Below the pieces are notes generated by a model. The model was not told the origin of the DNA. It did no database searches and saw only the letters and a program-made list of their open reading frames with translations. The position numbers and the translations under genes are program-made. A stretch of DNA of 64,000 nucleotides from assembly GCA_016432325.1 (NCBI GenBank), contig CP066684.1:544001-608000 (forward strand), in the 5' to 3' direction. Positions 23,809-31,316 of this stretch are shown piece after piece. Each line of letters begins with the position of its first letter. Position 1 is the stretch's first letter. The stretch is from Candidatus Aenigmatarchaeota archaeon. GTDB taxonomy: Archaea; Aenigmatarchaeota; Aenigmatarchaeia; PWEA01; JACQIF01.

Positions 23809-24324
23809 TCACTTTGCCCGTCTGCCGCGCATCGCGTACTTTGGTCCTTCTGGCGTCTTGACAATCTTTAGGATTTTTCTGTGTCCCGCAAGAACATTGA
23901 GGTAGGGGGCCACTTCGTTCGGCTTGATTTTGTAGCCGGCCTTCTCAGCCCGCTCGACTATATCCGGTATGCCCAAGGCCCTCCTGCTTCTTTTGATGAG
24001 ATCAAACGCGTAGACGCCAGGCCTGAAAGAGTCGCTGTCGCTTTTTGCGCGTCTTCCCGCACGTCGCTGCGGGGTTTCCTGACCGTCTTCCTGTCGAACT
24101 TCATAGTCAAACTCTGTTCTCAGATAATCTCGTAGCTCCTGGTCGCTTTCTGCAATCTTGTAAATCTGCGTTCTCAAGTCCCGCGCATGTGAGTCCAGTT
24201 CCGAAACCCGCAAGACCATGCCTATGCACTCGGCAGCGCTCTGCTCGCGAGGCTCTGCGTATTTGCGTGCTAATCGCTGAGCCTTGTAATCCAAACGTGA
24301 CTTCCTTGGCATTCGATTCCCCAT
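23809..24324 (-). CDS. Hypothetical protein with probable C-terminal winged HTH
   Basis: LIKRSRRALGIPDIVERAEKAGY..V...L..L helix pattern followed by beta hairpin. Confidence 0.55.
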   Translation of the reverse strand: MGNRMPRKSRLDYKAQRLARKYAEPREQSAAECIGMVLRVSELDSHARDLRTQIYKIAESDQELRDYLRTEFDYEVRQEDGQETPQRRAGRRAKSDSDSFRPGVYAFDLIKRSRRALGIPDIVERAEKAGYKIKPNEVAPYLNVLAGHRKILKIVKTPEGPKYAMRGRRAK

Positions 24325-24396
24325 ACAATTGATTGGTGCAAAGTTATTTAAAACAATGAGCGCCGTGGACGACCTCTTAGGCCTATTGCATCCTTG

Positions 24397-24891
24397 CTAC
24401 TTGCCCGACTTGACCGTCTCGACCGCACGGACGTCGCGAACTCGTTTCAGTTCCTCTTCCGAGAAGGGGGCAATAAAGACCAGCACGAAACCGTCTGGGT
24501 CACGGAAGGCCGCCTCGATGGTTCCCCAGTAATAGTGCCTAATCGGGACCTTGATGTTCACGTTTGCGTTCTTGAGAAGCGGGACCAATGACTCGACGCT
24601 GATCATCGCGGAGATTTTCGGCGTCTTCACCTGCTCCTTGAACACGGAGGAGTTCGTTATTGCAATGTGACCTTCAGCAATCTCAAGCTTTGCGCCGCCC
24701 GGAACCTCGAACGTCATCCCGCGGTAGCGTTCAGGAGCCGACGCTAGACCCTTCGGTAACGTTGAGCGAAACTTCTCGTCTCCGTACGCGAAGATGGGTC
24801 TGAATCCAAGTGACTCGTAGAACTTGCGCGACCTATCGAAGTCCCCTACCTTCAGGTGTATTCCAAGACCAGTAATCTTGCATTCTGACAT
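24397..24891 (-). CDS. VOC/glyoxalase family protein
   Basis: LKVGDFDRSRKFYESLGF; WG...FRDPDG. Confidence 0.88.
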   Translation of the reverse strand: MSECKITGLGIHLKVGDFDRSRKFYESLGFRPIFAYGDEKFRSTLPKGLASAPERYRGMTFEVPGGAKLEIAEGHIAITNSSVFKEQVKTPKISAMISVESLVPLLKNANVNIKVPIRHYYWGTIEAAFRDPDGFVLVFIAPFSEEELKRVRDVRAVETVKSGK

Positions 24892-25133
24892 TTCCGCAAC
24901 CTCTTTTGTGTAGCTATTTTCTACCCCTCTAGCATTCAACTTGGTTTAGTTTCACGATCGCTTGATATTGTGGTTTGGCTCAATCGGCGAACCGATAACG
25001 CGCCCCAATATGCGTTGCCTCCCCGTTTTCAACCATTCCACATTCATGACAATATTCGGCCTCCTGAGCATTTAAGGCTAACACAAGAGGTCGAACAGCG
25101 CCCGATATTATTATTTAAGGTGGTGGTGGCCGC

Positions 25134-26450
25134 TTAGGCGGTTTTGTTGCGCAGGGCGCCAAATCCGGGAATTTCAAACTCGGCCGCTCCCTTGTAGTAG
25201 TCGCGTATCCTGCTGAAGAGTGTTTTAATCTCTGGATTTTCATACGACTGCGTCTTAGTCGCTATTCGTTTCAGGGTTCTGTCGGGATCCTCGTTGAATT
25301 CCACTTGGAAATGTTCGACGCCGACCTTGAATATCAGCTCGGAGGCGTCCGTCCTGCTCCGCTTTGTTGTCGATTCGGAGAAGATCTCTTCAAGATTGTC
25401 ATCACTCAGGGGAAAATCAATCGGTTTCAGATGTTTTCCTATCCTAGGGATGATTCTAGGAAGTTGTTTCGCCAGAGTTTCGGCGTCGGGAAACATATTC
25501 GGCCACTCGCGCGTAAATATTTCGACCGCTTCAGACGTATATCCGTCGAGCGCCAGAGAGGCTATCGCGCCAGCCGCCTTGTTTCTTTCTAGAAACTGGC
25601 CTACTTGGTCTTCTGTGGGAGCGATCTTTCTCCTTAAAACATCGCGCCAGCCGTAGTTTATAGCAGCGCAGTATGCCCCCCTATCTACTTTAAAGAGTTC
25701 GACGGCGCTCAATCCTTCCAAGCCGTTCTCCTTCAAGTATGCGACAAACCCATCCTTCCCCATGGCTTTCCAACGACGCCACTTTGTATGCCGCCGTCTC
25801 AGAACATTCCTCCAGCCATGTCTCCTAGCGGCGTCGTACGCCGCATAATCCTTTTTTATGAGTTCGCCGGGGGTCAACTCGTCCAATCCATTCTCCTTCA
25901 AGTATGCAACAAACCTATCCCTGTCCATTGCCTTCCAGTTCCTACCTTTCTTGATTCTTATCAGAAGATCGGTCCAACAATACCTTCTGGCGGCATCATA
26001 CGCTCCCTTGTCTCTATCGTCAAGCTCCTTCGGACTTAGTCCTTCCAAGCCGTTCTCCTTCAAGTAATTTACAAACCCATCCTTCCCCATGGCTTTCCAA
26101 CGACGCCCTTTCTTCCGTTCCAATTTCAAAAGGTCAAGCCAACCATATACACGCGCGGCTCTGTAAGCTCCCGAATCCATTTCGTTGAGTTCCTGTGGAT
26201 GCACTCCTTCAAATCCGTTCTCCTTCAGGTAGCCGGCAAAATCCTCTTTGGTCATTCTGCTCCAATCTCTCTGCTGGGTTCCAGGTATAACATCAAGCCA
26301 ATCGTATCTTCTAGCGGCCTGGTAGGCCCCCTGGTCTTTTCTACTAAGCTCCCCATGGTTCAGCTTATTCAAACCGTTCTCTTTCAAGTAAGCAACGAAT
26401 CCGTCCTTGTCCATCTCTTTCCAGTTTCTTGGCTGTCGCGCCATGTTCAT
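25134..26450 (-). CDS. Tandem helical-repeat protein C (5 x ~54-aa repeats + conserved C-terminal domain)
   Basis: WxxMxKxGFVxYLKENGL...ELxxxDxGAYxAAxxxGW repeats; ATGA overlap with upstream gene. Confidence 0.85.
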   Translation of the reverse strand: MNMARQPRNWKEMDKDGFVAYLKENGLNKLNHGELSRKDQGAYQAARRYDWLDVIPGTQQRDWSRMTKEDFAGYLKENGFEGVHPQELNEMDSGAYRAARVYGWLDLLKLERKKGRRWKAMGKDGFVNYLKENGLEGLSPKELDDRDKGAYDAARRYCWTDLLIRIKKGRNWKAMDRDRFVAYLKENGLDELTPGELIKKDYAAYDAARRHGWRNVLRRRHTKWRRWKAMGKDGFVAYLKENGLEGLSAVELFKVDRGAYCAAINYGWRDVLRRKIAPTEDQVGQFLERNKAAGAIASLALDGYTSEAVEIFTREWPNMFPDAETLAKQLPRIIPRIGKHLKPIDFPLSDDNLEEIFSESTTKRSRTDASELIFKVGVEHFQVEFNEDPDRTLKRIATKTQSYENPEIKTLFSRIRDYYKGAAEFEIPGFGALRNKTA

Positions 26451-27913
26451 GCCTCTCTCAGTTTCCCGAAGCCCGGTATCTCGAACTCCATCGCGTTTCT
26501 ATAGTATTCGTGGACTCTCTTGAAAATGCTTCTAACTTCGGCCTTCTGTTGCGTGTTCACCATTCGTTCCAGCTCGGAAAGGACAGATCGTGGGTCGGCG
26601 TTGAATGTCGCCTGGTAGTGCTGGACTCCTATCTCATAAACAATTCCAGCGAGTTCCTTCCTGGTTGCTTTCGGCAAGTCCTTTGAAAATATCGTCTGGA
26701 GGCGGTCTTCATTGACCGGAAAATCCAGCGGCTTCAAGTGCTTTCCTATCTTGGGGACTATTCTGGGTAGCTGTTTTGCGAGCGTCGCGGCTACCGGAAA
26801 GGCGTTGGGCCATTCGCGCGCGAGTATGTCAACCACGTCGGAGGCGTAGCCGTCAACTGCCAGCGAGGCTATCGCGCTGGCGGCTTTGTTGTTCGCGAGG
26901 AACTTTTTTGCCTGGGTTTCTCTCTGGGCGATCTGTCTTTTCAACAGATCGAGCCACCCGTGTGTGCGAGCTGCTGCGTATGCCCCGCTATCTTTTCTAG
27001 CAAGTTCGCTGGGCGTCAATGTGTCCCATCCATTCGCTTCTAGGTAAGCAAGAAATTCTTCCCTACCAATATTCTTCCAATCTCTCCTCTTTCGTATTTG
27101 CCTTTTCAAAACGTCAAGCCAGTCATGCCTTAGAGCAGCTCCATACGCTTTATCGTCCCTTTTTTGGAGTTCCTCGGGGCTCAATTCAAACAACCCGCGA
27201 TCCTTGAGATATTCAATAAATCCCTTCTTGCCCATAGTCTCCCAGTAATGTCCTTCTGTCGGAGCCCTCCTTAGGATGTCTGTCCAACCGTATTTCTCGG
27301 CAGCATAACTCGCATGCCTGTCTCGCTTCTTAAGTTCGCCACGACTCAGGCCGGCTAACCCCTTATTCGTCAGGTATTGTTCGAATCCCGCTTTCCCCAA
27401 GTTCTTCCAATCTACCTCTTCTTTATCTCTCTTAGTCCTCACAACGTCAAGCCAGCCGTGATTTTTAGCGGCTTCGTATGCTTTTTTATCGATTGTTTGT
27501 AATTCGCCGCGACTCAATTTGTCTAGGTTTCTTTTTTGCAGATACTTGACAAATCCTTCCTTACCCATCGCACTCCAATTCCTTCCACGTGGCTGCTCCC
27601 TTTTCACGATGCTAATCCAGCCGTTTCTACAGGCGGCAGAGTAGGCTCTCAAATCCCTCGTCTGCAGTTCGCCGCGACTCAACCCATCCAACCCCCTCTC
27701 TTTCAGGTAAGCAACGAATCCCTCCTTGCCCATCCCTTCCCAGTCTATTCGCTCTCTTTTTACAGCATCGATCCAGCCGTGTACCTTTGCGGCTTCGTAG
27801 GCAGCCGGGTCTCTTTTCCTAAATTCCCCACGAGGCAAGCCTTCCAAGCCCCTTTCTGCCAGATATTCGATGAATCCGTTTTTGTCCATCTCTTTCCAAC
27901 GCTGTCTAGCCAT
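26447..27913 (-). CDS. Tandem helical-repeat protein B (6 repeats + conserved C-terminal domain)
   Basis: Same repeat; C-terminal AIASLAxDGY...EFEIPGFG. Confidence 0.85.
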   Translation of the reverse strand: MARQRWKEMDKNGFIEYLAERGLEGLPRGEFRKRDPAAYEAAKVHGWIDAVKRERIDWEGMGKEGFVAYLKERGLDGLSRGELQTRDLRAYSAACRNGWISIVKREQPRGRNWSAMGKEGFVKYLQKRNLDKLSRGELQTIDKKAYEAAKNHGWLDVVRTKRDKEEVDWKNLGKAGFEQYLTNKGLAGLSRGELKKRDRHASYAAEKYGWTDILRRAPTEGHYWETMGKKGFIEYLKDRGLFELSPEELQKRDDKAYGAALRHDWLDVLKRQIRKRRDWKNIGREEFLAYLEANGWDTLTPSELARKDSGAYAAARTHGWLDLLKRQIAQRETQAKKFLANNKAASAIASLAVDGYASDVVDILAREWPNAFPVAATLAKQLPRIVPKIGKHLKPLDFPVNEDRLQTIFSKDLPKATRKELAGIVYEIGVQHYQATFNADPRSVLSELERMVNTQQKAEVRSIFKRVHEYYRNAMEFEIPGFGKLREA

Positions 27914-29060
27914 GCCGAACACCTTTCATCTTCCCAAATCCAGGTATCTCGAACTCGGCCACAGCACTGTAGTATTCATGTATTCTACAGAAGATGTTTC
28001 TCACTCTCGGATTTTCATACGATTGCGTCTTGGCGTGCATTTTCTCCAGTGTTGCTGCTGGGTCTCTGTTGAATTGAAGTTGGAAATATTCGACGCCGAC
28101 ATTCAAGATTATGTCGGACGCTAGCATGTGGACTCTTTGTGGAACGTGTTCCGAAAATATTAGTTCAAGGTTTTCATTGTTTATGGGGAAATCCAGTGGT
28201 TTCACGTGCTTGCCTACACTGGGCACTATTCTAGGAAGTTGCCTCGCCAGCTCTTCTGCGTCAGGAAACACGCTTGGCCACTCCAGCGCCAATATGTCAG
28301 CCACATCGGAAATGTATCCATCGAACGCAAGTGAAGCTATCGCGTTAGCACTCTGGTTGCTCTCTAGGAATTGCTTTGCCTGCCTTTCTCTCGGGAACGT
28401 CTTTCTCTTCAGTATGTCCAACCAGCCGTGTTTACGAGCGGCTTTGTATGCACCGGGATCCTTTTCAGAGAGGCCTGTCGGGCTCAAGTTCTCCCATCCG
28501 TTCTTTTGCAGATAGTCAATGAAACCCCTCCTCCCCATCTCCTCCCAGTCCCTCGGCGCCCGGCGCGTTCTTTTCAATGCGTCCAACCAGCCGTGTTCGC
28601 GAGCGGCATCATAGGCGCCCGGATCCCTTCTCGCAAGCTCCTTGGGACCCAGCTCCCCCAGCCCTTCTTCCTCCATATAGGAGACGAAGCCCTCTCTGTC
28701 CATCTTCCCCCAGTTCCTTGCTTTCCGTTTCCCTCTCTTCAACACATCCAGCCAGCCGTACTTTTTAGCGGCACGATACGCATCTCCGTCTCTCTTCGCA
28801 AGTTCTGGGGGGCCTACATCGGCCAATCCGTTCTCTCTTAAATATTCGACGAACCTTTCCTTTCCCGTAACGCCCAAGTCCCTCCTGTCTGGGTTCTTTG
28901 CCTTCAAATCCATCCAAGATTCGTGGGCGGCGTCGTATACTAGAGGATTTCTTCTTCGAACCGTTGCTATGTCCTGTTCGTCCATTCCCCTCTCTTTCAG
29001 AAAACCGACGAATCCATCTTCGCCCATTTCCTTCCAGAACTCTTTGTTCCGCGTCATCAC
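27906..29060 (-). CDS. Tandem helical-repeat protein A (4 repeats + conserved C-terminal domain)
   Basis: Same repeat and C-terminal domain; overlaps helicase stop. Confidence 0.85.
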   Translation of the reverse strand: MMTRNKEFWKEMGEDGFVGFLKERGMDEQDIATVRRRNPLVYDAAHESWMDLKAKNPDRRDLGVTGKERFVEYLRENGLADVGPPELAKRDGDAYRAAKKYGWLDVLKRGKRKARNWGKMDREGFVSYMEEEGLGELGPKELARRDPGAYDAAREHGWLDALKRTRRAPRDWEEMGRRGFIDYLQKNGWENLSPTGLSEKDPGAYKAARKHGWLDILKRKTFPRERQAKQFLESNQSANAIASLAFDGYISDVADILALEWPSVFPDAEELARQLPRIVPSVGKHVKPLDFPINNENLELIFSEHVPQRVHMLASDIILNVGVEYFQLQFNRDPAATLEKMHAKTQSYENPRVRNIFCRIHEYYSAVAEFEIPGFGKMKGVRHG

Positions 29061-31135
29061 TTCCCCCTCTTCCTGTCGCCTGCAAAGCTCATCTTGATGA
29101 CCCCGGGCGCGGCCTTGCCGCTCTTTCTCAATACGTAGAGGTCCATTCTGCTCGAACTCACGTTTGCGTGGTTGTCCTCACACTCGAAGCCGTAGAGCCT
29201 GAAGTTGTCCATCAGGTCGTTTCTGTCGGCATCGTCAAAATGCTGCGAAGGCACGACTACGATGGCCGAACCGTCGGACTTGAGAACGCGGTTGACCTCC
29301 TGCAGAACGATGGAACGCTCCTTTTTCGGCTCGGCTATGTGGAGGGCCAGAGAGAGGTTGACGAATCCAAAGCTACCATCGCGGTAGGGAAGCGACGAGA
29401 ACGTTCCTTCGGCGTGTGTACTATATGTGAGGCCGAGCTTGCCGCGACCGACCTTGAGGTTGGCTCTGTTGATGTCCAATATATAGGTGGGATGCCCACC
29501 GTGATAAGCGAGCATGCCCGCGCCGCCCGCGAGGTCGAGCCAAGGCTCGCTTGGAGCCAGCTTCTCTGCCACAGGCACGTATATGCTGGCCGCCTTCTTC
29601 GCGCCGCTGTAGTTCGGGTACATCTCGGCTATCTGCTTGGCGACCTCCGGATTCTTTTTAATTCTTCGCAAGGCTCCATCGGTTCCTATGCTCGGCCACT
29701 TCATGTAGTAGTCGAGGACTATCCTGTTGGTCGTCTTGATGGAGTTTTTAATCTTCGGGACCGTGCTCCGCCCGTCCATGTTCAAGAGGTCCTCTCTGGT
29801 TAGCTTGTAGCCTGACATGAGGTAGTCGACCACGCGTTCCTTCGCCTTGAGCATGTCGTACTGGGCCTGATCGAGAGATTTCCTTGCATCGCCCGGATAC
29901 TGGGCAAGGATGTTGTAGACGGTCACGCGCTCCTTCCTCATCTCCCCCGGGCGGACGGTTCTCTTTATGCGCTGGTTGTATTCGGCCGGTGTCCACGGAA
30001 GAGATAAATTCACGACCGCTGTGGCGGCCGTCAGGTCCACGCCCTCGTTCATGACTCCCGTGGAGATAAGAACCTTTGCGCGCGGATCCGTCTGGAACTT
30101 CCGTCTAATACTTTCCCGCTCGCCGTTGGCCACGTCCACATCGCCACTGATTGATACGGCACCATAGTTGGCGTAGCGTCTCTCGAGCTTGCCGACGATG
30201 CCTTCCTTGAGATGCGTGAAGACCAAGACCTTTCCACGCTTCGTTTCGCTCTCCACTATCTCGTCGAGCTTTTCGTACTTCGGCGAGACTGCCAGACCGT
30301 TTGTGATAAGGCTCTGGTCGGCAAGGGATGTATCGAGCAAAATCTTTTCCAGTTGTTTTATCTTCTTGCCGGGATGTAGCCGCTTCTCCAAGACGTCGTT
30401 GTAGGCCTCGAGCCAGCGACCGTCCATTTCAAGCATGACGTTCCGCTCCTTCCACTGGGGGAGTGCGTGACCTATGTAGTCTTGGGCGTTGCCGCGAATC
30501 ATTTTCCTCTGTATCAGGTGCTTGAAAACCTGAGGATCGTTCCAATAGATTGCCTCAAACTTCTGCCTCGCCTCCCTGTTTATGTCAGGGCTGTCTGAGA
30601 GCGGATATTCTTGAGGCTCCAACAGATGCATCAGCATATAGACATCGCTGATGGTATTGGGAACCGGTGTTCCGGAAAGTAGCGTAACGTACTCAGGATC
30701 TTCCGCGAGGCTGCGGATACTCTGGCTCCTGATGGCGCTGGGATTCTTGGTGTTGTGAACCTCGTCGAGAATGATATGGTCGAACCCATTCCTTTTCATC
30801 TTTCTGATAAACCCGTCCTTCCCGTGGGAGAGGAAGTCATAGTGAACTATCGTCCATTCGCTCGTGCCGTCCCATTTCTGGTAGCTGTCAACCGTCAGGT
30901 CAAAGACTTCCTGACCTCTAGGATATGCCCATGTCTCGATTTCATCCTTCCATTTAGACTTGACCGAGTTTGGGCAGACCACCAGGGCCTTTGTGTCGGT
31001 GTCATCACGTCTTATGACATTGTCGACGAAGACTGCCTGAGCTGATTTGTACATGCCCATGTCATGGGCTATAAGGAACCTCTTCTTCTCATACGCGCTC
31101 TTGACGCTGACATATTGAAATGGCTGCAGTTTCAT
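29057..31135 (-). CDS. SNF2-family helicase fused to C-terminal class I SAM-dependent methyltransferase
   Basis: HDMGMYKS (motif I), DEVH, LSGTP, EGVDLTAA, QRIKRTVRPG; LDLAGGAG, LPYRDGSF, EVNRVLKSDG. Confidence 0.88.
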   Translation of the reverse strand: MKLQPFQYVSVKSAYEKKRFLIAHDMGMYKSAQAVFVDNVIRRDDTDTKALVVCPNSVKSKWKDEIETWAYPRGQEVFDLTVDSYQKWDGTSEWTIVHYDFLSHGKDGFIRKMKRNGFDHIILDEVHNTKNPSAIRSQSIRSLAEDPEYVTLLSGTPVPNTISDVYMLMHLLEPQEYPLSDSPDINREARQKFEAIYWNDPQVFKHLIQRKMIRGNAQDYIGHALPQWKERNVMLEMDGRWLEAYNDVLEKRLHPGKKIKQLEKILLDTSLADQSLITNGLAVSPKYEKLDEIVESETKRGKVLVFTHLKEGIVGKLERRYANYGAVSISGDVDVANGERESIRRKFQTDPRAKVLISTGVMNEGVDLTAATAVVNLSLPWTPAEYNQRIKRTVRPGEMRKERVTVYNILAQYPGDARKSLDQAQYDMLKAKERVVDYLMSGYKLTREDLLNMDGRSTVPKIKNSIKTTNRIVLDYYMKWPSIGTDGALRRIKKNPEVAKQIAEMYPNYSGAKKAASIYVPVAEKLAPSEPWLDLAGGAGMLAYHGGHPTYILDINRANLKVGRGKLGLTYSTHAEGTFSSLPYRDGSFGFVNLSLALHIAEPKKERSIVLQEVNRVLKSDGSAIVVVPSQHFDDADRNDLMDNFRLYGFECEDNHANVSSSRMDLYVLRKSGKAAPGVIKMSFAGDRKRGK

Positions 31136-31316
31136 GTCTACCCCAAACGGTATGGATAGGAAGTTTTAAATAGGTCACCACCTATGGACGACGACGTCTA
31201 ATTGACATCAATGGATCCACCACAAGCTGTGCCTATAGAAGCAACTGTCTGTTCGGCCGATGGTCGACCCATAGACTCTCTCACTCCGATATTAATATGG
31301 TTAGAGAATATCATTC

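What the first reader, a model, noticed from the sequence alone, without database searches (positions are those of the whole stretch)
25714..26107. Repeat units keep an identical scaffold half but diversify the putative recognition half (TALE-like code?)
Seen: 25714-25780 and 26041-26107 are 67-nt copies differing at 4 positions (encoding RRWKAMGKDGFV[A/N]YLKENGLEG). The following residues differ strongly (SPKELDDRDKGAYDAARRY vs SAVELFKVDRGAYCAAINY). Across the 15 repeats the D-x-x-A-Y-x-A-A-x-x positions vary (PA/E, LR/S, KK/E, DK/G, SG/A, QG/Q, SG/R, KG/D, YA/D, RG/C, GD/R, PG/D, PG/K). Inference: recent repeat duplication or shuffling plus diversifying selection on surface residues, as expected for a programmable per-repeat recognition code.
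Basis: partly seen in the sequence, partly recalled or inferred. Interest (0 to 1): 0.75.

Follow-up and report, generated by a model that had tools for sequence, protein, structure and literature searches.

The report
Repeat-array adaptors of an archaeal SNF2 motor
The two near-identical 67-base stretches are a short patch copied between two repeats of one gene, not a sign of a TALE-like code, and that gene is one of three repeat-array proteins that probably bind DNA and dock onto a neighbouring SNF2 motor-methyltransferase, an arrangement I found in no family library or paper I searched.

Summary
The sequence facts hold: 25714-25780 and 26041-26107 differ at 4 of 67 bases, and there are 15 repeats of about 54 aa in three overlapping paralogous genes. 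The general claim, a fixed scaffold half and a diversified recognition half, does not hold. Variable positions lie on all three predicted helices (mean entropy 1.41 against 1.49 bits per half). In the A3/A5 pair, synonymous sites are identical in codons 1-20 (16/17) but not in codons 21-48 (2/14). That fits a short gene-conversion tract, not duplication followed by diversification. Synonymous sites are saturated (pS about 0.8), so dN/dS says nothing.

Context is the stronger result. Each protein is a basic array of three-helix modules plus a conserved 160-aa C-terminal domain, downstream of an SNF2 ATPase-methyltransferase. This neighbourhood recurs in 22 of 23 DPANN loci chosen by the SNF2 gene alone. 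In other loci the array slot holds true HTH domains or Pfam HNH_repeat units. A control-tested complex model places the C-terminal domain's conserved FxIPGxG tail on the SNF2 N-lobe (0.71, best control 0.00), and one Micrarchaeota protein fuses the two. Function is untested. The scan noted this operon before, on this genome only.

The parts
25714..25780 (-). Conversion tract, copy in repeat A5 (start of the fifth repeat of gene A plus 5 linker bases)
   Evidence: 63 of 67 bases identical to 26041-26107. Synonymous sites identical in 16/17 codons. The exact 37-base core 25744-25780 is a separate double-depth contig in two of four runs.
26041..26107 (-). Conversion tract, copy in repeat A3
25134..26450 (-). 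Gene A, 438 aa: 5 repeats (array 25629-26423) plus C-terminal domain (25137-25628)
   Evidence: ORF list; repeat coordinates; no Pfam or NCBIfam family
26447..27922 (-). Gene B, 491 aa: 6 repeats (array 26936-27898) plus C-terminal domain (26450-26935). Its stop overlaps the start of A.
   Evidence: AF2 model: each repeat has helices of about 15, 7 and 9 residues, and linkers have pLDDT under 50.
27906..29060 (-). Gene C, 384 aa: 4 repeats (array 28404-29036) plus C-terminal domain (27909-28403). It overlaps B by 17 bases.
29057..31135 (-). SNF2 ATPase fused to a class I SAM methyltransferase, 692 aa, first gene of the operon (ATGA overlap with C)
   Evidence: SNF2-rel_dom 5e-23, Helicase_C 1e-20, Methyltransf_11 1e-8. 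About 35 clusters of the same fusion at 30-50% identity.
31164..31172 (-). TATA-like box TATTTAAAA, 28-36 bases upstream of the SNF2-methyltransferase start codon
   Evidence: read directly from the sequence; function inferred

Best explanation
The finding lies inside gene A of a four-gene operon. The first gene encodes an SNF2-type ATPase fused to a class I methyltransferase. Three paralogous proteins, C, B and A, follow it.

Each paralogue has two parts. The N-terminal part is a basic, beads-on-a-string array of 4-6 independent three-helix modules of about 54 aa. The C-terminal part is a conserved all-helical domain of about 160 aa.

I propose three things. (a) The C-terminal domain is a docking domain. 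Its conserved tail (Y145, F151-x-I153-P154-G155-x-G157, with Q108/F111/N112/P115) binds the N-terminal lobe of the SNF2 ATPase. (b) The arrays are the target-binding part, most likely binding DNA, so the three paralogues give one motor-methyltransferase three different targets. (c) The 67-base near-identity between repeats A3 and A5 is a recent short gene-conversion or recombination tract that started in the most conserved stretch of the repeat. The second halves are old, synonymously saturated sequence.

Shown: the anatomy, the tract, the conserved gene neighbourhood and the swapping of array types. Predicted: the docking. Inferred: DNA binding and the role of the motor and the methyltransferase.
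For: Tract: 16/17 against 2/14 identical codons on either side of codon 20.

Family: a profile search of 1.8 billion representatives gave 565 clusters at E<=1e-3. Some carry repeats plus the C-terminal domain, some repeats only, and some the C-terminal domain behind other N-terminal parts. The repeat is homologous to two variant repeat types in those proteins (hhalign probability 97-98%).

Neighbourhood: loci fetched with the SNF2-methyltransferase alone have a C-terminal-domain or array gene abutting it on the same strand in 22 of 23 DPANN loci, L024-L046. The same holds in five more loci of the window's own phylum. Metagenome loci fetched with the C-terminal domain alone show the SNF2-methyltransferase upstream wherever the contig reaches: L019 at 48.5% identity and L021.

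Slot swapping: the N-terminal arrays of these neighbours are our repeat, Pfam HNH_repeat, both in one protein, or true HTH domains.

Fusions: eight HNH repeats are fused to an SNF2 ATPase in L047, and HNH repeats to the SNF2 in L077. A C-terminal-domain-like segment ending in NIPG lies 20 aa before the SNF2 motif I in a Micrarchaeota protein, L048.

Docking: the complex model scored 0.71, 0.72 and 0.69 against a best control of 0.00, with partner pLDDT of 72 or more and at least 60% of contacts shared between runs. That mark was reached by 58 of 80 solved complexes and 2 of 110 mismatched pairs. My own alignments were used, so those counts hold only roughly. The interface falls on the conserved columns of the C-terminal domain.

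Charge: arrays have net charge +6 to +17 and Arg/Lys-rich linkers.
Against: No experiment exists. No sequence profile links our repeat to HTH or HNH_repeat (hhalign probability 0.1-6%), and no Pfam HTH family hits it. DNA binding therefore rests on analogy of position, on charge, and on weak fold matches to phage endonuclease-like proteins (E 5e-4 to 7e-3).

The fold of a single repeat was never compared with solved structures. The methyltransferase resembles small-molecule, RNA or protein methyltransferases (Methyltransf_11, UbiE), so its substrate is open.

In this subfamily the glycine before the Walker A lysine is Y or F (MGMYKS; consensus DEMGMFKT), so ATPase activity is not certain. The complex score is the model's own confidence, not a measurement.
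Confidence: 0.55

Rival explanations
1. The array is a programmable code in the manner of TALEs or zinc fingers. A fixed scaffold carries a few specificity residues in helix 3 (D-x-x-A-Y-x-A-A-x-x) that are under diversifying selection, and each repeat reads a defined piece of nucleic acid.
For: The four most variable positions (35, 27, 31, 24) lie in predicted helices 2 and 3. They alternate with invariant A33, Y34, A36 and A37, so they probably sit on the exposed face of helix 3. The same positions vary in homologues such as P0003. The slot holds HTH arrays elsewhere.
Against: Helix 1 varies just as much at positions 3, 7, 11 and 14, with helical periodicity, which is the ordinary surface pattern of any small helical bundle. 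Repeats are only about 25-60% identical. There is no excess of non-synonymous change. Arrays do not evolve faster than the docking domain. The A3/A5 pattern that prompted the idea is a conversion tract. The model is beads on a string, not a solenoid.
Confidence: 0.12
2. The arrays bind proteins or other ligands, not nucleic acid. On this reading they are scaffolds or decoys, for example for viral or host proteins, and the SNF2-methyltransferase acts on that partner.
For: No HTH signature appears in our repeat. The methyltransferase is not of a DNA-methyltransferase family. The distribution is patchy, with the C-terminal domain detected in 3 and the SNF2-methyltransferase in 13 of 371 genomes of the phylum, as expected for conflict systems.
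Against: SNF2 ATPases are double-stranded DNA translocases (established knowledge). The equivalent slot holds true DNA-binding HTH domains in many loci. The arrays are strongly basic.
Confidence: 0.15
3. The 67-base identity is not a biological event. It could be an assembly chimera in a repeat-rich gene, or be kept by selection at the nucleotide level, for example for an RNA structure or an internal signal.
For: Short-read graphs collapse the shared 37-base core, and contigs break there.
Against: Four runs give the same three pieces around the core. The 350-base middle piece has single-copy depth, no alternative letters and no joint that skips it. The 4-base difference inside the tract is kept. 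The genome is one 875-kb contig. However, the runs are from one study and may be the source of the assembly, so they are not independent.
Confidence: 0.05

Closest known systems
Pfam HNH_repeat (PF18780, 'homing endonuclease associated repeat') arrays
   Same: Units of about 55 aa in tandem arrays, starting with a conserved W. They occupy the same slot in front of the same C-terminal domain next to the same SNF2-methyltransferase (P0080 E 6e-29; L024, L027, L031, L033, L037, L039). They occur together with our repeat in one protein, L024:6614-7663 and P0073.
   Different: No detectable sequence relationship: the Pfam model does not hit genes A, B or C, and hhalign probability is 1-6%. Our repeat has its own signature, W-x-x-M ... 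Y-L-K-E-N-G ... E-L ... D-x-x-A-Y-x-A-A ... G-W-L-D.
Tandem HTH or Myb/SANT-type three-helix DNA-binding modules, including the SANT-SLIDE modules of ISWI-type SNF2 remodellers (from general knowledge)
   Same: Independent three-helix units of about 50 aa with aromatic cores, strung together and working with an SNF2 motor. True HTH arrays fill the same slot in L032, L034, L035, L036, L041 and P0068.
   Different: Our repeat matches no HTH or Myb family, and its fold was not compared on its own with solved structures. Here the modules sit on separate adaptor proteins, not on the ATPase.
TALE repeats (and PUF/PPR codes)
   Same: Tandem helical repeats in which some positions vary from unit to unit.
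   Different: TALE repeats are near-identical except for two residues and form one continuous superhelix (general knowledge). Here the units are about 25-60% identical, vary at 15 or more positions and are modelled as separate bundles.
Specificity subunits of type I restriction-modification systems (HsdS with HsdM and the SF2 translocase HsdR) (general knowledge)
   Same: An SF2 translocase and a methyltransferase are paired with separate, multi-copy DNA-specificity proteins. Recombination in conserved segments can re-assort variable parts, as the A3/A5 tract could.
   Different: No nuclease, no N6-adenine or C5 DNA-methyltransferase motifs, no HsdS fold and no R-M family hit. This is an analogy only.
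Bacterial defence SNF2 proteins (DISARM DrmD, Zorya ZorD, BREX BrxH, Dpd DpdE)
   Same: The best NCBIfam and PADLOC matches of the ATPase (81 bits to DrmD, 88 bits to ZorD), a patchy distribution and a lower-GC island.
   Different: The NCBIfam DrmD score is far below that family's cut-off (81 against 610 bits). None of the partner genes of those systems is present, and genes A, B and C match no defence family.
CDCA7-HELLS (a separate DNA-binding adaptor that activates an SNF2 ATPase linked to DNA methylation; title and abstract of PMC10538959 seen)
   Same: The logic: a separate adaptor delivers an SNF2 motor to its target, coupled to methylation.
   Different: Eukaryotic, a zinc-finger adaptor, nucleosome substrate and no sequence relationship.

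Membership tests
TALE-like coded repeat array | Repeats near-identical except for a pair of specificity residues | tested here: not met
   Roughly 25-60% identity between the 15 repeats. Fifteen positions exceed 2 bits of entropy and are spread over all three helices.
TALE-like coded repeat array | Repeats pack into one continuous superhelical solenoid | tested here: inconclusive
   The AF2 model gives separate three-helix bundles, linkers with pLDDT under 50 and pTM 0.36. The alignment behind the model had only 3 sequences.
TALE-like coded repeat array | One repeat reads one base or a fixed number of bases | not testable with these tools
   Needs binding assays or a complex structure.
Pfam HNH_repeat (PF18780) | Match to the family model at or above its cut-off (26 bits) | tested here: not met
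   No HNH_repeat hit for A, B or C at E<=1. hhalign probability 1-6% against units from P0080, P0050 and P0093.
Classical helix-turn-helix DNA-binding domains | Match to an HTH family model, or an HTH fold match | tested here: inconclusive
   No HTH family at E<=1. hhalign probability 0.1% against the HTH units of P0068. Three helices of 15, 7 and 9 residues are predicted, but a single repeat was not folded and searched alone. Whole-model searches were filled by the C-terminal domain.
SNF2 family ATPase (upstream gene) | SNF2-related N-lobe plus helicase C-lobe with motifs I, II (DExH) and VI | tested here: met
   PF00176 5e-23 and PF00271 1e-20. D124, E125, H127 and K30 are invariant in 29 homologues. 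The glycine before the lysine of motif I is replaced by F or Y.
Known defence systems with SNF2 proteins (DISARM, Zorya, BREX, Dpd) | Score above the family cut-off, and the system's partner genes present | tested here: not met
   81 bits against a DrmD cut-off of 610. No partner families in the operon or its neighbours.
Array plus C-terminal-domain adaptor family (defined here) | C-terminal helical domain of about 160 aa ending in F-x-I-P-G-x-G, encoded next to an SNF2-methyltransferase gene | tested here: met
   The three C-terminal domains are 51-55% identical. P43, P154 and G155 are invariant in 54 homologues. AF2 gives pLDDT 88 and pTM 0.82. Neighbourhood found in 22 of 23 loci.

The most novel reading that the evidence does not exclude
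The array proteins are exchangeable specificity subunits of an undescribed system in DPANN archaea, with fused forms in CPR-type and other bacteria. Modular arrays of small DNA-binding units, each reading a short piece of sequence, would dock by a common domain onto one SNF2 translocase-methyltransferase and direct it to chosen sites. Recombination within the conserved parts of the repeats, as in the A3/A5 tract, would re-assort modules and create new specificities. That would be a nuclease-free counterpart of type I restriction-modification specificity switching, and possibly a programmable DNA-targeting scaffold.
Probability: 0.15. Interest if true: 0.8.

Novelty: new variant of a known kind. 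Interest (0 to 1): 0.5.

Why it matters
The feature that was flagged is ordinary: a short patch copied between repeats. The genes it sits in are not. The repeat, the C-terminal domain and their link to an SNF2-methyltransferase appear in none of Pfam, NCBIfam, PHROGs or PADLOC, nor in the papers I could search. Yet the arrangement recurs across Woese-, Pace-, Nano-, Aenigm- and Micrarchaeota and Nanohaloarchaea. Forms with the array or the domain fused to the SNF2 occur in Micrarchaeota and in bacteria (Fermentibacteria, Doudnabacteria).

These organisms have tiny genomes, so keeping one to three adaptor genes beside a motor suggests a real function in genome handling, defence or gene control. 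The system also gives a clean test bed. It has one motor, a predicted docking motif of a few residues, and natural adaptors carrying three unrelated kinds of DNA-binding array.

Tried and rejected
- Tandem Repeats Finder found nothing at the DNA level, because the repeats are too diverged.
- Pfam, NCBIfam, PHROGs and PADLOC gave no credible family for A, B or C.
- PDB sequence searches with the repeat profiles (A2, A12), the C-terminal-domain profiles (A3, A7) and P0080 gave only chance-level hits. The best was Deinococcus L4 at E 0.001, which fell to 1.8 with the broader profile.
- Fold searches of the C-terminal-domain model found no Foldseek hit at E<=1e-3. The best VIA Z was 7.3, to a designed helical bundle, which is within the noise for helical proteins.
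- Whole-protein model searches against the PDB were uninformative. They returned generic solenoids, or only the C-terminal domain was matched.
- The ESM Atlas gave nothing usable for the C-terminal domain. For the array it gave unnamed, partly phage-derived clusters, a lead only.
- tblastn of the B array against 50,697 phage records gave no match.
- The word-index homology search found only the window's own proteins. The exhaustive HMMER search was needed.
Alignment A3 in genome contigs found nothing.
- In the same-genus genome G001 the contigs end on both sides of the island, so presence or absence cannot be told.
- dN/dS was computed but is uninformative because synonymous sites are saturated.
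- No RNA holder was listed among the sequencing runs. The contigs showed no repeat-number variants, but contigs drop rare variants.
- The methyltransferase domain matched only generic SAM-dependent methyltransferases in the PDB, at E about 0.005.
- Three literature searches found no description of the family or the operon.

Full report
**1. What is at the coordinates**

The window comes from a single-contig archaeal genome of 874,869 bp, about 90% complete. Earlier unchecked notes of this scan call it an Aenigmatarchaeota (DPANN) organism from groundwater.

The finding lies on the minus strand inside gene A (25134-26450). This is the last of four genes whose stops and starts overlap:
- an SNF2 ATPase fused to a class I SAM methyltransferase (29057-31135)
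- gene C (27906-29060)
- gene B (26447-27922)
- gene A

A TATA-like box, TATTTAAAA, sits 28-36 bases upstream of the first gene.

A, B and C are paralogues. They carry 5, 6 and 4 copies of a repeat of about 54 aa. Its 48-aa core has the consensus WKxMGKxGFVxYLKENGLxxLxPxELxxRDxxAYxAAxxxGWLDxLKR. A C-terminal domain of about 160 aa follows and is 51-55% identical between the three. These 15 repeats and 3 C-terminal domains are the only copies in the genome. GC content falls from about 57% to 50% over 24000-28500. The neighbouring genes are housekeeping genes (aEF-2, a class I aminoacyl-tRNA synthetase, aRF1, dihydroorotate dehydrogenase), and no integrase is nearby.

**2. The observation**

The two 67-base stretches are real and differ at four adjacent bases.

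The decisive test is at synonymous sites. I looked at codons where A3 and A5 share a degenerate amino acid.
- In codons 1-20, 16 of 17 are the identical codon.
- In codons 21-48, only 2 of 14 are.
- The background over all other repeat pairs is 0.42, which gives P about 9e-6 for the first half.

A recent duplication of the whole repeat followed by fast protein change in the second half would have left the synonymous sites of E25, L26, D30, G32, A33, Y34, A36, A37, W42 and D44 identical. They are not. So this is a short tract, copied between two old repeats, that ends after codon 20. The most conserved stretch of the repeat is where homologous exchange is expected to start.

Contigs from four groundwater runs reproduce the arrangement. 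All four come from one study and may be the source of the assembly. The contigs break at the exact 37-base shared core, which has about double depth. The 350-base piece between the copies has single-copy depth, and there are no variants.

**3. Is there a scaffold half and a recognition half?**

No, not in general. Over the 15 repeats, positions above 2 bits of entropy are 3, 7, 11, 14, 19, 20 and 22 in the first half and 24, 27, 28, 31, 32, 35, 38 and 39 in the second. Mean entropy is 1.41 against 1.49 bits.

The AF2 model of B places helices at about positions 1-15, 23-29 and 31-39 of each repeat. The variable positions follow helical periodicity and alternate with the invariant core residues F9, Y12, L13, A33, Y34, A36, A37 and W42. 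This is the ordinary pattern of exposed against buried residues. The four most variable positions (35, 27, 31, 24) do lie in helices 2 and 3, which fits a binding surface there but does not show one.

Synonymous differences among repeats are saturated (median pS about 0.8). Even at the 15 variable positions pN is 0.55 against pS 0.74. Arrays and C-terminal domains have diverged equally between the paralogues, 47-49% against 51-55% identity. There is no evidence for diversifying selection, and these data cannot provide any.

**4. What the proteins are**

No curated library names them. An exhaustive profile search of 1.8 billion representative proteins found 565 clusters at E<=1e-3 and 152 at E<=1e-10. 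They fall into three groups: repeats plus the C-terminal domain, repeats only, and the C-terminal domain behind other N-terminal parts.

Our repeat is clearly homologous to two variants seen in those proteins, WSKMSDEELIEYGKxHGLYGLSPSEAxKKDxGYY... and FYxNMTKEQWLxYGxENG..., at hhalign probability 97-98%. In other members the N-terminal part is an array of Pfam HNH_repeat units (P0080 at 6e-29, also P0093 and P0050) or of true HTH domains (P0068, HTH_23 at 6e-25). The three array types show no profile similarity to each other. They are different modules used in the same slot.

The C-terminal domain folds with confidence into nine helices (pLDDT 88, pTM 0.82). It has no specific match among solved structures. 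It has no invariant polar residues that would suggest catalysis. Its conserved columns are P43, F46, L56, P57, P69, Y107, F111, N112, P115, Y145, F151, I153, P154, G155 and G157.

**5. Conserved neighbourhood**

I fetched loci with the C-terminal domain alone from metagenomes. This gave seven mostly short contigs. Where the contig reaches upstream, an SNF2-methyltransferase is there:
- L019 has an SNF2-methyltransferase at 48.5% identity, then a protein with 10 repeats plus the C-terminal domain, then a second array gene.
- L021 shows the end of the methyltransferase, then a C-terminal-domain gene.

The reverse test is independent of the C-terminal domain. Loci fetched from species genomes with the SNF2-methyltransferase alone have one to three C-terminal-domain or array genes abutting it on the same strand in 22 of the 23 DPANN-type loci, L024-L046. 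In the exception the contig ends at the gene. Five more loci from the window's own phylum show the same. Their arrays are our repeat (L025, L038, L040), HNH_repeat (L024, L027, L031, L033, L037, L039, L043, L045), both in one protein (L024), or HTH arrays with whole-protein E-values of 1e-17 to 1e-35 (L032, L034, L035, L036, L041).

Fusions point the same way. Eight HNH repeats are fused to an SNF2 ATPase in a Fermentibacteria genome (L047), and HNH repeats are fused to the SNF2 in a Doudnabacteria genome (L077). In a Micrarchaeota genome (L048), a C-terminal-domain-like segment ending ...YDYYSELKKLNIPG sits 20 residues before motif I of the SNF2. There the flanking eight array genes lack the C-terminal domain.

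Within the window's phylum the system is patchy. The C-terminal domain was detected in 3 of 371 genomes and the SNF2-methyltransferase in 13. Divergent copies of the C-terminal domain were missed by the first of these searches.

**6. Docking**

A control-tested complex prediction of the SNF2-methyltransferase with the C-terminal domain of B scored 0.71, 0.72 and 0.69, against 0.00 for the best of three controls. Partner pLDDT was 72 or more, and the runs shared at least 60% of contacts. In the tool's calibration this mark was reached by 58 of 80 solved complexes and 2 of 110 mismatched pairs. I supplied my own alignments, so those counts hold only roughly.

The interface uses the conserved columns Q108, F111, N112, P115, Y145, F151, I153, P154 and G155 of the C-terminal domain. 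They contact residues 3-12, 36-43, 71-72, 201-220 and 440-443 of the ATPase. This agrees with the Micrarchaeota fusion, where the same segment is joined to the N-terminus of the SNF2. It is a prediction, not a measurement.

**7. Most likely mechanism**

One SNF2 motor-methyltransferase is served by several adaptor proteins. Their common C-terminal domain docks on the motor, and their basic arrays (pI 9.3-9.7, Arg/Lys-rich linkers) bind the target, probably DNA.

What the motor and the methyltransferase then do is open. Remodelling, marking, defence and gene control are all possible. The methyltransferase is of the Methyltransf_11/UbiE type, not a known DNA-methyltransferase family. The DPANN subfamily has Y or F in place of the glycine before the Walker A lysine.

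The A3/A5 tract shows that repeats exchange short segments. Whether that ever creates new specificities is speculation.

**8. Verdict**

The sequence observation is correct, but its generalisation fails. It is wrong on diversifying selection and on a TALE-like design.

The surrounding system appears undescribed and is moderately interesting. Earlier first-reader notes of this scan flagged the same operon on this same genome. I found no note of it on other DNA.

Noticed in passing
window 31043-31060 (-), residues 26-31 of the SNF2-methyltransferase: Motif I reads MGMYKS. The alignment of 29 homologues has the consensus DEMGMFKT, so the glycine before the Walker A lysine is F or Y throughout this DPANN subfamily. 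The Micrarchaeota (L048, GLGKT) and CPR (L061, GLGKS) relatives keep the canonical glycine. The effect on ATPase activity is unknown.
   Followed up: partly
L048:3346-13520: In a Micrarchaeota genome, eight tandem genes each encode 2-5 copies of the repeat but no C-terminal domain. They flank an SNF2-methyltransferase whose own N-terminus carries a C-terminal-domain-like segment. How arrays without the domain would reach the motor is unexplained.
   Followed up: partly
L047:4328-8398 and L077:4370-9409: In bacterial genomes (Fermentibacteria, Doudnabacteria), HNH_repeat units are fused in one reading frame to the N-terminus of a related SNF2 ATPase. Many CPR relatives (L049-L088) have reading frames of about 1,000-1,900 aa with long N-terminal extensions that I did not characterise.
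   Followed up: partly
window 23809-24939: The lower-GC stretch also covers a 171-aa ORF with no family (23809-24324, -) and a glyoxalase/bleomycin-resistance-fold gene (24397-24939, -), both on the same strand downstream of gene A. Whether they belong to the island is not known.
   Followed up: no
window 30766-31068: One low-depth contig (depth 4, 26 bases on the shorter side) of run X3 skips 301 bases near the 5' end of the SNF2 gene. It probably comes from another organism or is an artefact.
   Followed up: no
L024:6614-7663 and P0073: Single proteins mix one HNH_repeat unit with several units of the window's repeat type. This shows that modules of different families are combined within one array.
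   Followed up: partly
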